A model generated the notes under the pieces. It worked only from the letters and a program-made list of their open reading frames with translations, made no database searches and was not told where the DNA came from. A program made the position numbers and the translations under genes. A DNA stretch of 63,822 nucleotides from Clostridiales bacterium (lineage in GTDB: Bacteria > Bacillota > Clostridia > Oscillospirales > CAG-272): contig JAAYLD010000066.1 of the NCBI GenBank assembly GCA_012522015.1, positions 1 to 63,822 on the forward strand. Reading direction: 5' to 3'. The first letter of the stretch is position 1. Every line of letters begins with the position of its first letter. Positions 9,013-11,963 of the stretch are shown here, in pieces.

Positions 9013-10026
9013 TTACTTATTGATAGCTCCGTCAGCTATATTAACCTCTCCGTCGCAGTTGACGATGGAACCGCCGGCGTCAGCGTTGATTTTACCGCCC
9101 GTCACAGTTATTGAAGTAACAGCCTGCAGTGAATCGTCTCCGGAGTCTATCGAGATAGTGCCACCTTCAATAAAGACATAACCTTTATCTTGCCTTGTTT
9201 TGTTTGTTGATTTGATACCGTCATTTTTACATGCGATAGTTATGTTTCCTTCTTTGATTGTCACGCTGTCATTGCCGCGGATTCCGTGATTTTCAGCAGT
9301 TACATTGATAGTGCCGCTTATTATCTTCAGGTCATCCTTAGAACCGATGCCGTTATTGTAGTTTGCATAAACTTTAAGCGTGCCTGTCCCATTTATGGTA
9401 AGGTCGTCTTTTGAGAAAAGACAGGCGTTAGGTTCACCTTCGGCATTCAAACCGGTGTAGTTGTCGCCATCCTGGAGAGTGGAGGTTGTTCCTTCAACAA
9501 GAGTAATTGATGTCTTGTCGCAACTTTTAATCCATATGGGAGCACTTGTTTTACAGATAAGGCTGAGCTTATCGAAGACGAGGTGAACCTTTTCCTCTTT
9601 TGTTACTTCGACTATGACCTGACCGTCTTTGCATGAGCCAGTGAGAATATATGTGCCCTCGGCGGATATTGTGACGACAGTGTCATTTGCAGCGGCGCCT
9701 TTACCGTCGATTTTAACGGATGAATCCGAAAATGTTATCTTTGCATCGTAGTCGTTGTATGATTCGTTAAGGTCGAACTTTGTATAGCGCACAACCTGGG
9801 TGTTATCAGGCTTTTCGCCAATTTCGTCGTCTCCTGTGTTGTCGCCGTCCGAATCATCGGGATCGTTATTTTCTGTGGGAGAACTACTGGGGGCTGTGCT
9901 GTTATCTTTTGTGTTGTCTGTATTGTCACCTTTTGATGAGTCACATGAGGCAAGCATTGCAGCACATAAAGCTGTTATAAGTAGAGCCGAAATAATAATT
10001 AAAAAAAATTTTTTATAAGCGTACAT
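9013..10026 (-). CDS. Carbohydrate-binding beta-helix lipoprotein (Cthe_2159/DUF4353-like)
   Basis: Lipobox MLASC, acidic Ser/Thr linker, and repeated beta-helix turns (GTYILTGS, SKDDLTINGTGTL, HGIRGNDSVTI, NDGIKS). Confidence 0.85.
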   Translation of the reverse strand: MYAYKKFFLIIISALLITALCAAMLASCDSSKGDNTDNTKDNSTAPSSSPTENNDPDDSDGDNTGDDEIGEKPDNTQVVRYTKFDLNESYNDYDAKITFSDSSVKIDGKGAAANDTVVTISAEGTYILTGSCKDGQVIVEVTKEEKVHLVFDKLSLICKTSAPIWIKSCDKTSITLVEGTTSTLQDGDNYTGLNAEGEPNACLFSKDDLTINGTGTLKVYANYNNGIGSKDDLKIISGTINVTAENHGIRGNDSVTIKEGNITIACKNDGIKSTNKTRQDKGYVFIEGGTISIDSGDDSLQAVTSITVTGGKINADAGGSIVNCDGEVNIADGAINK

Positions 10027-10142
10027 GGTGTACTCCTTTGGAAAATCAAAGTTGTATTCACACCGGCTACTATTTATTATGGACCGGTTTATTACGTATA
10101 AAAATCTATGTATTTTTAGGTTGGTTAAGACTAAAGCGGTTT

Positions 10143-10727
10143 TTATATTAATGTGATGTCGCTTATCAAGACGGCGCGGCAGGGAGCACCGTCGGAGCCG
10201 CCCATGTTTATAGGCGCTGCAAATAAAAAGTATCGACTGTCAGGTGCATTTTTAAGGCGCAGCCCCTCTATTATGGCGACGTTTGAAGACAAAAGAATGA
10301 GGTGTGTTTCACGAGGGGACTTGGGATTGCCTACACTTTGTGATTCTACGCCGACAAGGAGAATTCCCCGCTCAACGATAAGGCGTGCGGCGTCCGCAGT
10401 TATGTAGTCTGCTCCGCGTATGAGAAGACGCTTGCAGTCGGAGGGAATCAATCGGGCAAGAGCCTCAGCGTTTGCCGCTCCGTGCACGGAAATCACATCG
10501 GCTGTGCCCACAAAGCGTTGCAAATCAAGCTGGTCAACAGATGGAGCGCCGTCGATGAAATGACATGGCGCGTCGACGTGCGTGCCGTTGTGAACACACA
10601 TTGTAACATCTGTTAAGTTTATGGCATCACCGCTTGATATTGACATGACGCGCCGCGGCATAGGAGGTGTGTCGCCAGGGAAAACAACAGAGCTATAAAG
10701 CTCTTGAGATATATCAATAATTTTCAT
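10143..10727 (-). CDS. Cyclase family metal-dependent hydrolase (kynurenine formamidase-like)
   Basis: HNGTHVDAPCHF (HxGTHxDxPxH), IIEGL and DGAPCRAV motifs. Confidence 0.92.
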   Translation of the reverse strand: MKIIDISQELYSSVVFPGDTPPMPRRVMSISSGDAINLTDVTMCVHNGTHVDAPCHFIDGAPSVDQLDLQRFVGTADVISVHGAANAEALARLIPSDCKRLLIRGADYITADAARLIVERGILLVGVESQSVGNPKSPRETHLILLSSNVAIIEGLRLKNAPDSRYFLFAAPINMGGSDGAPCRAVLISDITLI

Positions 10728-10734
10728 TATAATT

Positions 10735-10830
10735 ATATAAAAACACCGAAGTGTTCAATTAGTGAGGGCGGCCGCAATTTCTGTACGCAAGCACAAAAAT
10801 CGCGCTTGGCACGACCGCTTTTAAATAAGT
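10735..10830 (-). ncRNA. Candidate structured leader RNA or sRNA ending in a C(UUCG)G terminator hairpin
   Basis: Lies between a consensus promoter and the cyclase start. Nested stems GCGGUCG/CGGCCGC and CAAGCGC/GUGCUUG, then GAACAC-UUCG-GUGUUU-UUAU. No match to a family I recognise. Confidence 0.45.
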
Positions 10831-10836
10831 TACATT

Positions 10837-10865
10837 ATTATATCACGATTATTTTACGATTGCAA
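10837..10865 (-). promoter_or_regulatory. Sigma-A promoter upstream of the cyclase leader
   Basis: Minus strand TTGCAA-17 nt-TATAAT with TGn extension. Confidence 0.75.
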
Positions 10866-11064
10866 CAAGCATAATTAAACGAAACGGTAAAAAAATTTGT
10901 AGGGTTACAATACAAAAAAATAGCTTGCTATTTATCTTTGAAAATCAAATTCTACCCCTATGCGCCCTCTCGGGTATCTTTCTCCTATCCATTTTCTTGA
11001 TCATTGACTGTCCAATATGTTTGAAAAACCTACAACGTTATAATAATATTTTCATTAATTACAC

Positions 11065-11093
11065 TTGACAGCGGACGGGCAATGTGCTATCAT
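11065..11093 (+). promoter_or_regulatory. Sigma-A promoter for tRNA-Arg
   Basis: TTGACA-17 nt-TATCAT, 21 nt upstream of the tRNA. Confidence 0.75.
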
Positions 11094-11114
11094 ATTTAGG
11101 CTCAAAAAAACCTT

Positions 11115-11187
11115 GCGCCCTTAGCTCAGTGGATAGAGTGCCCGGCTACGAACCGGTAGGTCAAAGGTTCGAATCCTTTAGGGCGCG
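11115..11187 (+). tRNA. tRNA-Arg (anticodon ACG)
   Basis: Acceptor GCGCCCT/AGGGCGC, D stem GCTC/GAGT, loop CT-ACG-AA, T arm AAAGG-TTCGAAT-CCTTT. Confidence 0.95.
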
Positions 11188-11189
11188 CT

Positions 11190-11221
11190 TAAACACCTCC
11201 CTTTGGAAGGTGTTTTTTTTG
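11190..11221 (+). terminator. Terminator after tRNA-Arg
   Basis: AAACACCTCC...GGAAGGTGTTTTTTTT hairpin plus T tract. Confidence 0.75.
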
Positions 11222-11356
11222 CCTTTTTTGTTTTTGCGTATTATCAGAAGTGCTTAACATTTAAAATAATATAACCTGCAAGCGAAGATTAAGCGCAAGC
11301 ACTAACATAGCAATATAAAGACAGACACATAAAATATAAAGCAAAAGTTATAATAA

Positions 11357-11385
11357 TTGCCACACGGTTGCTTTCATGATATAAT
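11357..11385 (+). promoter_or_regulatory. Sigma-A promoter for the rimM operon
   Basis: TTGCCA-17 nt-TATAAT with TGn extension. Confidence 0.7.
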
Positions 11386-11453
11386 GTACAAAATAGGTGT
11401 AGCATTTTATTAACGGCATTTGTCACATAATCGGACTGGAGGAACTTAATCTG

Positions 11454-11963
11454 ATGGCGAAGCCTCAGTACCTAAGATGCGGTGAGATCATCAACACGCA
11501 CGGCTTGCGCGGAGCAGTTAAAGTCCGTGCCGAATGTGATTCGCCAAAAATTCTTGCATCTCTGCGGCATATATATCTTGACCCGAATGGTGATGTGGTG
11601 TTTGAGATCGTGTCCAGTTCAGTTATGGGGAACTTCGTCTTACTCTCGCTCTCCGGTATCAACACGCTTGATGCTGCTGCCACTCTGAAAAATAAGATTA
11701 TTTACGCAGGACGCGACGAGCTTGAAGAGCATATAGCCCCGGGAGCACACTTTATTGCCGATTTAATTGGACTTCCGCTTATTCACGCCGATACCGGCGA
11801 GAAGCTTGGCATTTTAAAGGATGTATTCAATGTCGGTGCGTCGGATATCTATGTTGTCGATACACCGCGCGGTGAGAGGATGATGCCGGCTGTTGCAGAG
11901 TATGTAAAAGAAATTACAGACGATGCAATCTATGTGCGTCCGATTGAAGGAATGCTTGACTAA
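11454..11963 (+). CDS. rimM: 16S rRNA processing protein RimM
   Basis: GEIINTHGLRGAVKV, ADLIG, GASDIYVV and PIEGML motifs; RBS GGAGG. Confidence 0.95.
   Translation: MAKPQYLRCGEIINTHGLRGAVKVRAECDSPKILASLRHIYLDPNGDVVFEIVSSSVMGNFVLLSLSGINTLDAAATLKNKIIYAGRDELEEHIAPGAHFIADLIGLPLIHADTGEKLGILKDVFNVGASDIYVVDTPRGERMMPAVAEYVKEITDDAIYVRPIEGMLD

What the first reader, a model, noticed from the sequence alone, without database searches (positions are those of the whole stretch)
10728..10865. Unrecognised promoter-structured RNA-terminator leader upstream of a cyclase-family hydrolase
Seen on the minus strand: TTGCAA-17-TATAAT; then, about 12 nt after the predicted +1, an outer stem GCGGUCG/CGGCCGC enclosing CAAGCGC/GUGCUUG and a possible small CAG-AAA-UUG arm; then GAACAC-UUCG-GUGUUU with a U-rich tail, 13 nt before an ATG that has no Shine-Dalgarno. 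Both large stems need G-U pairs that become mismatches on the plus strand, which supports the transcribed strand. It does not fit the T-box, TPP, SAM, purine, THF or ZTP consensus that I recall. Inference: a new riboswitch/attenuator or a stand-alone sRNA of about 95 nt.
Basis: partly seen in the sequence, partly recalled or inferred. Interest (0 to 1): 0.62.

Follow-up and report, generated by a model that had tools for sequence, protein, structure and literature searches.

The report
Lineage-restricted structured leader of a hydrolase gene
This is a real, conserved promoter followed by a roughly 105-base untranslated leader with two simple RNA hairpins in front of a kynurenine-formamidase-like gene; it occurs only in three closely related uncultured Clostridia lineages, and nothing found here supports calling it a riboswitch.

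Summary
They are a sigma-70 promoter with an extended -10, stems in the minus-strand transcript, and a short hairpin plus U5 lying 13 nt before an ATG with no Shine-Dalgarno. Comparison with the only relatives found changes the picture. These are five sequence variants from three lineages whose cyclase genes differ at 27-35% of four-fold sites.

- A 59-nt promoter block (10884-10826) is invariant.
- A 22-nt block (10799-10778) is invariant and folds into a 9-bp hairpin.
- The short cUNCGg hairpin plus U5 (10756-10739) is nearly invariant.
- The segments between these blocks change at or above that four-fold-site rate.

There is no covariation beyond shuffled controls and no Rfam match. No copy turned up among 61 relatives searched by DNA or 401 genomes of the order searched with a covariance model. 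No antiterminator comes close in energy. The "terminator" is weak: -5 kcal/mol, within this genome's background.

Best reading: a lineage-specific 5' leader whose two hairpins act in cis, probably through a trans-acting factor. It is not a metabolite aptamer. Interest is low.

The parts
10826..10884 (-). 59-nt block identical in all variants; holds the promoter and the first bases of the transcript
   Evidence: Alignment of the whole intergenic region of four of the variants (V1-V4); upstream of it the sequences hardly align
10837..10865 (-). Sigma-70-type promoter: -35 TTGCAA (10865-10860), 17-nt spacer, extended -10 TGaTATAAT (10845-10837). The spacer and -10 carry a direct repeat, AATCGTAAAAT / AATCGTGATAT (10861-10840)
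   Evidence: 10 of 12 matches plus TG; invariant
10819..10831 (-). Predicted +1 (A at 10831/10830, inferred from the -10 position) and a conserved, probably single-stranded 5' tail AACUUAYWUAAAA
   Evidence: 0-2 changes in 13 nt between lineages; unpaired in most predicted folds
10778..10799 (-). Invariant core hairpin UUUUUGUGC-UUGC-GUACAGAAA (9 bp including 2 G-U pairs, -6.9 kcal/mol). The only polymorphism is the length of the U-run at its 5' edge (5, 6 or 7)
   Evidence: 0 of 22 changes in all pairwise comparisons; energy; U-run lengths
10774..10803 (-). Extended 13-bp form of the core hairpin in the window's variant (GCGA...UUGC added)
   Evidence: Minimum-free-energy and centroid folds; 96% of cells paired across variants
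10768..10818 (-).
   Evidence: 61% of cells paired, both arms in segments that differ at 28-52% of positions
10739..10756 (-). Hairpin 2: GA(A/G)CAC-U(U/C)CG-GUGUUU, a 6-bp stem closing a cUNCGg tetraloop, running into a U5 tract. A weak terminator-like element
   Evidence: -5 to -6 kcal/mol. The only substitutions keep the pairing (A-U to G-U) and the UNCG loop
10728..10738 (-). A/U-only spacer before the start codon, with no Shine-Dalgarno. Contains a TATAAT (10737-10732) only 4 nt before the ATG
   Evidence: No enrichment of -10-like hexamers at that distance from starts in this genome
10143..10727 (-). Cyclase-family (PF04199) metal hydrolase gene, 194 aa, kynurenine-formamidase-like
   Evidence: Pfam E = 2e-16. 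TIGR03035 scores 113 bits, below its 223-bit cut-off. PDB relatives include 1r61 and 4cz1
10759..10812 (-). Small upstream ORF (GUG here, AUG in the other variants); judged not functional as a coding unit
   Evidence: Read directly from the variant sequences printed: no Shine-Dalgarno, peptide not conserved, and U-run indels shift the frame and move the stop
11115..11188 (+). Divergently transcribed tRNA-Arg(ACG) with its own conserved promoter and terminator; it bounds the intergenic region

Best explanation
The region is the promoter and 5' untranslated leader of the cyclase-family hydrolase mRNA.

Shown:
- A strong sigma-70 promoter with an extended -10 sits in a 59-nt block that is identical in all variants.
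- The roughly 105-nt leader contains two blocks under purifying selection. Each is a simple hairpin in the minus-strand RNA: an invariant 22-nt A/U-rich hairpin with a UUGC loop, and a short cUNCGg hairpin followed by U5 that ends 13 nt before an AUG with no Shine-Dalgarno.
- The sequence between these blocks changes about as fast as four-fold degenerate sites in the gene.

Inferred:
- Every base of hairpin 1, including loop and wobble pairs, is invariant. This points to a sequence-specific binding site for a trans-acting factor (a protein or another RNA) rather than part of a ligand pocket.
- Hairpin 2 acts in cis at the junction with the coding region. It could be a weak, partial or factor-assisted terminator that releases a roughly 90-nt short transcript and limits read-through. 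It could equally be a structural element that sets how well the Shine-Dalgarno-less start is used.
- The invariant promoter block suggests additional control by a DNA-binding regulator.

The element is a recent innovation of one small clade and not a widespread RNA family.
For: - Promoter: 10 of 12 matches plus TG, inside the invariant block 10884-10826.
- Neutral yardstick: 27-35% of four-fold sites differ between lineages.
- Leader segments: core 0/22, hairpin 2 plus U-tract 1-2/21, flanking segments 5-11 of 18-21.
- Both conserved blocks fold as hairpins (-6.9 and -5 to -6 kcal/mol). Every non-Watson-Crick pair in them is G-U on the minus strand, which would be C-A on the plus strand.
- The only changes in hairpin 2 keep the pairing (A-U to G-U) and the UNCG loop.
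- Hairpin 1 plus hairpin 2 is the default fold in V1, V2 and V4; both hairpins also appear in V3 once the first coding bases are included.
- The element is single-copy, so it is not a repeat.
- Synteny rimM / tRNA-Arg / leader / cyclase / 337-359-aa protein is kept in all lineages.
Against: - There are no transcript data.
- With three lineages there is no statistical covariation.
- Hairpin 2 is energetically indistinguishable from background hairpin-plus-T-run sites in this genome. Real terminators here are around -15 to -23 kcal/mol.
- No candidate trans-acting factor was identified, and no second copy of the core motif exists in the genome.
- Total invariance of the core would also fit a DNA operator at about +33 to +54.
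Confidence: 0.45

Rival explanations
1. Ordinary 5' UTR. The hairpins only influence mRNA stability or the efficiency of the Shine-Dalgarno-less start, with no regulated switch and no termination. All regulation is transcriptional, through the invariant promoter block.
For: - Hairpin 2 is weak (-5 kcal/mol) and within background.
- No competing antiterminator fold exists.
- The 59-nt invariant promoter block with a direct repeat suggests transcription-factor control.
- One variant's leader folds no better than shuffles.
Against: Invariance of all 22 core bases, including the loop, at 27-35% neutral divergence is more than a generic stabilising hairpin needs. The hairpin is also not at the very 5' end, where protective hairpins act.
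Confidence: 0.25
2. DNA-level operators. The invariant 22-bp block at about +33 to +54 is an imperfect palindromic binding site for a repressor acting as a roadblock, together with sites in the promoter block. The RNA hairpin is a by-product.
For: The complete invariance fits sequence-specific recognition. The promoter block is also invariant well beyond the -35 and -10 hexamers. The 8-mer TRTGCTTG occurs in both blocks; this is seen directly in the sequence.
Against: As DNA the palindrome matches only 7 of 9 positions, and both mismatches happen to be G-U-compatible on the transcribed strand. That is expected for an RNA hairpin but has a chance of roughly 1 in 36 for a DNA site (my estimate from the sequence). 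No other copy of the motif sits upstream of any gene in the genome, and the best near-match lies inside a coding region. No regulator gene is adjacent.
Confidence: 0.12
3. Stand-alone sRNA of about 90 nt made from the strong distal promoter and ended at hairpin 2, while the cyclase mRNA is leaderless from a proximal promoter (TTGAAC, 15 nt, TATAAT, 4 nt, ATG).
For: - The layout looks like an sRNA: a conserved single-stranded 5' tail, a hairpin, and a terminal hairpin with a U-tract.
- The start codon lacks a Shine-Dalgarno in every variant.
- A -10-like [T/C]ATAAT is kept 4 nt before the ATG.
Against: - The proximal promoter has a 15-nt spacer and no TG.
- The ATG would be only the 5th base after the -10, which is outside the usual start-site range (established knowledge of sigma-70 promoters).
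- -10-like hexamers are not enriched at that distance from start codons in this genome (ratio 0.9).
- The terminator is weak.
Confidence: 0.1
4. New metabolite- or ion-sensing riboswitch, with the stems forming an aptamer and hairpin 2 acting as the expression platform.
For: No known family matches, so it would be new. The window's own variant folds well (z = -2.6). The gene is an enzyme of small-molecule metabolism.
Against: - The multi-stem fold is not conserved, and the junction and outer-stem segments evolve neutrally.
- Only two simple hairpins are conserved.
- The terminator and antiterminator folds are not balanced.
- The element is confined to three close lineages, and homologous genes elsewhere lack it.
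- A literature search for 'riboswitch' plus 'kynurenine formamidase' returned two papers, neither with either term in its title or abstract; I did not open them.
Confidence: 0.04
5. Ribosome-mediated attenuation through the small upstream ORF that runs across hairpin 1 and, in most variants, stops at the 5' arm of hairpin 2 (pyrBI/trp-like).
For: A start codon (GUG or AUG) is kept at the same column in all variants. The frame is open for 17-27 codons across a U-run, and it ends at or next to hairpin 2 in four of five variants. These points were read directly from the sequences printed.
Against: There is no Shine-Dalgarno before it, and the peptide is not conserved. U-run lengths of 5, 6 and 7 put the ORF in different frames. 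In the U6 variant the stop moves past hairpin 2 (sequence printed). No alternative hairpins exist for a ribosome to choose between.
Confidence: 0.04

Closest known systems
Intrinsic-terminator attenuators in Bacillota 5' leaders, including weak NusA/NusG-assisted terminators
   Same: The order of parts is the same: promoter, structured leader, a short hairpin with a UNCG loop, then a U-tract just upstream of the regulated ORF. The default fold has the terminator hairpin formed.
   Different: The stem has only 6 bp with 2 G-C pairs (-5 kcal/mol) and 5 U. No competing antiterminator is present. The hairpin lies 13 nt from a start codon that has no Shine-Dalgarno. Termination itself is untested.
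Protein-dependent antitermination and leader-binding systems (BglG/LicT RAT hairpins, PyrR, HutP, TRAP)
   Same: A short RNA hairpin whose sequence is invariant lies upstream of a terminator-like hairpin. That is the signature of a protein-binding site rather than a ligand pocket.
   Different: I see no resemblance to RAT, PyrR, HutP or TRAP binding motifs; this comparison is from memory and was not tested. The hairpin does not overlap the terminator, and no cognate regulator gene is nearby.
Rfam riboswitch families and 'orphan' candidate motifs
   Same: A cis-located structured RNA upstream of a metabolic enzyme gene.
   Different: No match at E up to 10 in the leader. There is no conserved junction or multi-helix core, no covariation, and the taxonomic range is extremely narrow.
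5' UTR-derived or terminator-ended small RNAs
   Same: About 90 nt, its own strong promoter, a conserved unpaired 5' tail, and a terminal hairpin plus U-tract.
   Different: It ends 13 nt before an ORF that has no convincing promoter of its own. No target or transcript evidence is available.

Membership tests
Any described RNA family (Rfam 15) | Match to a covariance model | tested here: not met
   A permissive E-value scan of 10000-11500 gave only tRNA-Arg and chance-level hits (E of 1.9 and 2 or more inside the leader), all far below gathering scores
Riboswitch | Conserved multi-helix aptamer supported by covariation | tested here: not met
   The outer stem pairs in 61% of cells and lies in segments that differ at 28-52% of positions. 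Covariation measures are reached by 97-253 of 500 shuffles. Only three lineages exist, so power is low
Riboswitch | Recurrence upstream of the same gene family or pathway across taxa | tested here: not met
   Found only in G000 and G018 among 61 relatives. None found in 401 genomes of the order with model R1. Homologues at 41-58% identity have unrelated leaders or follow folD
Riboswitch | Expression platform with mutually exclusive terminator and antiterminator | tested here: not met
   The best forced antiterminator (GUGCUU:GA[A/G]CAC) is 6.4-12.2 kcal/mol less stable than the default fold in all variants
Riboswitch | Direct ligand binding | not testable with these tools
   Needs in-line probing or ITC
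Intrinsic terminator / attenuator | G+C-rich stem-loop immediately followed by a U-tract | tested here: inconclusive
   6-bp stem, 2 G-C pairs, cUUCGg loop, U5, -5 kcal/mol. Not listed by the terminator scan. Lies within the background distribution, whereas the strongest quarter of gene-end hairpins is at or below -15 kcal/mol. It is nevertheless conserved with structure-preserving changes
Intrinsic terminator / attenuator | 3' ends of transcripts at the U-tract | not testable with these tools
Sigma-70 promoter | -35 and -10 hexamers with 16-18 nt spacing | tested here: met
   TTGCAA, 17 nt, TATAAT with TG, 10 of 12 matches; invariant in all variants. The start site itself has not been mapped
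Leader-peptide (ribosome-mediated) attenuation | Translatable upstream ORF kept in frame relative to the terminator | tested here: not met
   Read from the sequences: no Shine-Dalgarno; U-run of 5, 6 or 7 shifts the frame; stop position not kept
Leaderless mRNA | -10 element placed so that transcription starts at the A of the ATG | tested here: inconclusive
   TATAAT ends 4 nt before the ATG, with a 15-nt spacer to TTGAAC. There is no genome-wide enrichment at that spacing (ratio 0.9)

The most novel reading that the evidence does not exclude
A clade-specific cis-regulatory leader RNA. An invariant 22-nt hairpin is read by an unidentified RNA-binding factor, or by a small ligand through a very small pocket. 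This controls read-through of a weak cUNCGg terminator, and so expression of a kynurenine-formamidase-like hydrolase translated without a Shine-Dalgarno. The prematurely ended roughly 90-nt RNA may also act in trans.
Probability: 0.25. Interest if true: 0.4.

Novelty: new member of a known kind. Interest (0 to 1): 0.2.

Why it matters
If the leader is regulatory, it would show how quickly a new cis-acting RNA control element can arise. Relatives of the gene at 46-58% identity carry ordinary leaders with a Shine-Dalgarno, while this clade has a structured leader without one. It would also mark a hydrolase of unknown substrate as tightly controlled in an uncultured bacterium whose sequences were recovered from anaerobic-digester and bioreactor samples. 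The narrow distribution, the two simple hairpins and the missing transcript data limit its wider importance. The main value of this check is to remove it from the list of riboswitch candidates.

Tried and rejected
- Rfam scan with permissive thresholds: nothing in the leader.
- Repeat element: rejected, the element is single-copy in its genome.
- DNA search of 61 relatives: one hit only, G018 at 86% identity.
- Orthologue collection from 80 genome loci, 28 family genomes and 6 genus genomes: the upstream regions are unrelated.
- Protein search plus contig look-ups: only clusters at 99, 88 and 84% identity carry the leader. The next relatives, at 58%, do not.
- Metagenome scan with the 20-nt core: one true hit, an already known variant, and two chance hits.
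- Covariance model R1 over 401 genomes of the order: no further member.
- Antiterminator (2:3) pairing: present on paper but 6-12 kcal/mol too weak, and mismatched in the window's variant.
- Upstream ORF / leader peptide: rejected, based on frame-shifting U-run polymorphism and the missing Shine-Dalgarno, read from the sequences.
- Leaderless promoter: poor geometry and no genome-wide support.
- Regulon search for the core motif in the genome: only chance near-matches, the best one inside a uppP-like coding region.
- A shared 'ACTTCGGTGTTT' near another Shine-Dalgarno-less gene on contig C51: coincidence, there is no hairpin there.
- Plus-strand ORF 10704-10874: it spans the U-run whose length differs by 1-2 nt between variants, so it would be frame-shifted in them.
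- Earlier notes of this scan: nothing relevant.

Full report
**What is at the coordinates.** On the minus strand the window reads TTGCAA (10865-10860), a 17-nt spacer and TGaTATAAT (10845-10837). The consensus scan scores this 10 of 12 with the TG of an extended -10. From the -10 position, the transcript should start at A 10831/10830; this is inferred.
- GCGGUCG (10818-10812) with CGGCCGC (10774-10768);
- CAAGCGC (10808-10802) with GUGCUUG (10794-10788);
- GAACAC-UUCG-GUGUUU (10756-10741), running into U5.

Eleven A/U-only bases then lead to the ATG at 10727, with no Shine-Dalgarno. The ORF is a 194-aa PF04199 cyclase-family protein. It resembles kynurenine formamidase but scores well below the arylformamidase equivalog cut-off, 113 against 223 bits. 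The leader folds better than shuffled versions (z = -2.6). The upstream neighbour is a divergently transcribed tRNA-Arg(ACG) with its own promoter and terminator. No minus-strand gene reads into the region.

**Known families and copy number.** A permissive Rfam scan found nothing in the leader. The element is single-copy in its 1.8-Mb genome, so it is not a repeat.

**Distribution.**
- A DNA search of 61 relatives found one other copy, in a genome of the same genus (G018, 86% identity).
- Homologous cyclase genes at 41-52% identity in 80 genome loci, in the family and in the genus have unrelated upstream regions. Many start on the stop codon of folD, others follow a VanY-like gene, and same-genus homologues have a TGATATAAT promoter, a short leader and a normal Shine-Dalgarno.
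- In the 5.8-billion-protein collection, identity drops from 99, 88 and 84% straight to 58%. Contigs for the three close clusters all carry the leader, in conserved synteny: rimM, tRNA-Arg, leader, cyclase, a 337-359-aa protein. The two 58% relatives do not carry it.
- A metagenome scan with the 20-nt core returned one true hit, an already known variant, and two chance hits.
- A covariance model built from the variants found no further member in 401 genomes of the order.

In total there are five sequence variants from three lineages. Several of the samples are labelled anaerobic digester or bioreactor.

**Conservation pattern.** The three lineages differ at 27-35% of four-fold degenerate sites in the cyclase gene. 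Against that yardstick the intergenic region splits into sharply different blocks.

| Segment | Differences between lineages |
|---|---|
| Upstream of 10884 | hardly alignable; the window has about 60 extra bases |
| 10884-10826 (about -54 to +5) | identical, 59 nt |
| 5' tail of the transcript | 0-2 of 13 |
| Next 21 nt | 7-11 of 21 |
| Core, 10799-10778 | 0 of 22 |
| Next 18 nt | 5-9 of 18 |
| Hairpin 2 plus U-tract | 1-2 of 21 |
| A/U spacer | 1-3 of 11 |

The two conserved leader blocks coincide exactly with two simple hairpins.
- **Hairpin 1** is UUUUUGUGC-UUGC-GUACAGAAA: 9 bp, -6.9 kcal/mol.
- **Hairpin 2** is GA(A/G)CAC-U(U/C)CG-GUGUUU: -5 to -6 kcal/mol.

All non-Watson-Crick pairs in both hairpins are G-U on the minus strand, so they would be C-A mismatches on the plus strand. 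The two substitutions in hairpin 2 turn A-U into G-U and UUCG into UCCG, which keeps a cUNCGg tetraloop. It also favours RNA over a DNA operator for the core. As DNA the core is only a 7-of-9 palindrome, and I estimate roughly a 1-in-36 chance that both mismatches would be wobble-compatible on the transcribed strand.

**Tests of the proposed structure.** The outer stem pairs only 61% and is intact only in the window's lineage. Its arms lie in the fast-changing segments. The inner stem (93%) and the alternative long hairpin (96%) are both compatible with the data and exclude each other. No covariation measure exceeds shuffled controls: 97-253 of 500 shuffles reach the observed values. With three lineages the test has almost no power, so this is absence of evidence for the hairpins. 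For the outer stem it is positive evidence against. Each lineage extends the base of hairpin 1 with 6-7 further pairs, but using different columns. One variant's whole leader folds no better than shuffles (z = -0.17; the others are -1.7 to -2.6).

**Is hairpin 2 a terminator?**
- It has 6 bp, two of them G-C, and five U.
- The simple terminator scan did not list it.
- I applied one procedure to 417 gene ends with a hairpin plus T-run. The strongest quarter is at or below -15 kcal/mol. The rest overlaps the distribution from random windows, whose median is -4.3. The leader hairpin scores -3.6 by that procedure.
- The most plausible antiterminator, GUGCUU with GA(A/G)CAC, is mismatched in the window's variant. 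It costs 6.4-12.2 kcal/mol relative to the default fold in every variant.

If hairpin 2 terminates at all, it is weak, partial or factor-assisted, and there is no self-contained switch.

**The start codon without a Shine-Dalgarno.**
- Neighbouring genes mostly have clear Shine-Dalgarno sequences. About 47% of naive first-ATG ORFs in the genome have a core motif, against 7% background.
- The cyclase start lacks one in every variant.
- A TATAAT lies 4 nt before the ATG, with TTGAAC 15 nt upstream. That geometry is poor for a start at the A of the ATG.
- -10-like hexamers are not enriched at that distance from start codons in this genome (ratio 0.9; modest 1.5-1.6 at 5-6 nt). A leaderless transcript is possible but not favoured.
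- Reading the variant sequences directly, a small upstream ORF starts at the same column in all of them (GUG or AUG). It has no Shine-Dalgarno and its peptide is not conserved. The U-run that crosses it is 5, 6 or 7 bases long in different variants, which shifts the frame and, in the U6 variant, carries the stop beyond hairpin 2 (sequences). I reject it as a leader peptide.

**Mechanism.** What is shown is a conserved strong promoter and a leader RNA with two hairpins under purifying selection. What I infer is as follows.
- Hairpin 1 is a recognition site for a trans-acting factor, because its loop and wobble pairs are invariant.
- Hairpin 2 acts at the boundary with the coding region. It may be a weak terminator that yields a roughly 90-nt RNA and limits read-through, or a structural element next to an unusual ribosome-loading site.
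- The invariant promoter block suggests an additional DNA-binding regulator. Its direct repeat AATCGTAAAAT / AATCGTGATAT has an 11-bp period.

I put this composite reading at 0.45. The rivals are a plain UTR (0.25), DNA operators (0.12), an sRNA plus a leaderless mRNA (0.10), a riboswitch (0.04) and uORF attenuation (0.04).

**Comparison with known systems.** It works most like the leader/attenuator regions of Bacillota. It is not a member of any described RNA family. The defining features of a riboswitch that could be tested here were not met: a conserved multi-helix aptamer, recurrence across taxa, and balanced alternative folds. The terminator criterion is inconclusive. A full-text search for 'riboswitch' with 'kynurenine formamidase' returned two papers, neither with either term in its title or abstract; I did not open them.

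**Limits.** The organism is known here only from assembled, largely metagenomic, contigs. Only three lineages exist for comparison. The decisive experiments are end-mapping of transcripts, in vitro termination assays, and hairpin mutagenesis in reporter fusions.

**Verdict.** This is a real but ordinary-looking, clade-restricted promoter and leader. Interest is 0.2.

Noticed in passing
L038, L042, L045-L047, L049, L050, L052, L054, L057, L058, L060 (about position 1490-1505 in each): In many related Clostridia MAGs the homologous cyclase-family gene starts on or right after the stop codon of a gene whose C-terminus looks like FolD (...GGAATGATATGAAA...). This points to a functional link with one-carbon/formyl metabolism rather than tryptophan breakdown. 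The FolD call is from reading the sequence and was not run against a family library.
   Followed up: no
window 10840-10861 (-): Direct repeat AATCGTAAAAT / AATCGTGATAT (9 of 11 identical, 11-bp period) occupies the promoter spacer and -10, inside a 59-nt block that is invariant across lineages. It looks like a tandem binding site for a transcription factor.
   Followed up: partly
window 10795-10799 (-) and the same place in L143, L148, L163: The U-run at the 5' edge of the invariant hairpin is 5, 6 or 7 bases long in different variants. It is the only polymorphism in the core. It could be homopolymer slippage or an assembly error.
   Followed up: partly
window 10900-11045: The spacer between the tRNA-Arg promoter and the cyclase promoter is about 60 nt longer in the window than in the other lineages and is otherwise hardly alignable. 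The tRNA promoter (TTGACA, 17 nt, TATCAT; 11065-11093, + strand) is conserved.
   Followed up: partly
genome G000, e.g. C78 (-) 20752, C67 (-) 31439, C51 (-) 52831, C62 (-) 14504: Several long ORFs without a Shine-Dalgarno have a TGnTATAAT extended -10 element 5-7 nt before the ATG. These are candidate leaderless mRNAs, which would be unusual for Bacillota. The genome-wide enrichment is modest (1.5-1.6-fold).
   Followed up: partly
window 12020 (+), trmD: The first ATG of trmD also has no recognisable Shine-Dalgarno, 57 nt after the rimM stop.
   Followed up: no
L141 (G017) about 1440-1500: A same-genus cyclase homologue has an inverted repeat CCCTGCC...GGGCAG bracketing its TGATATAAT promoter and short leader. 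This is a different and unexplained arrangement.
   Followed up: no
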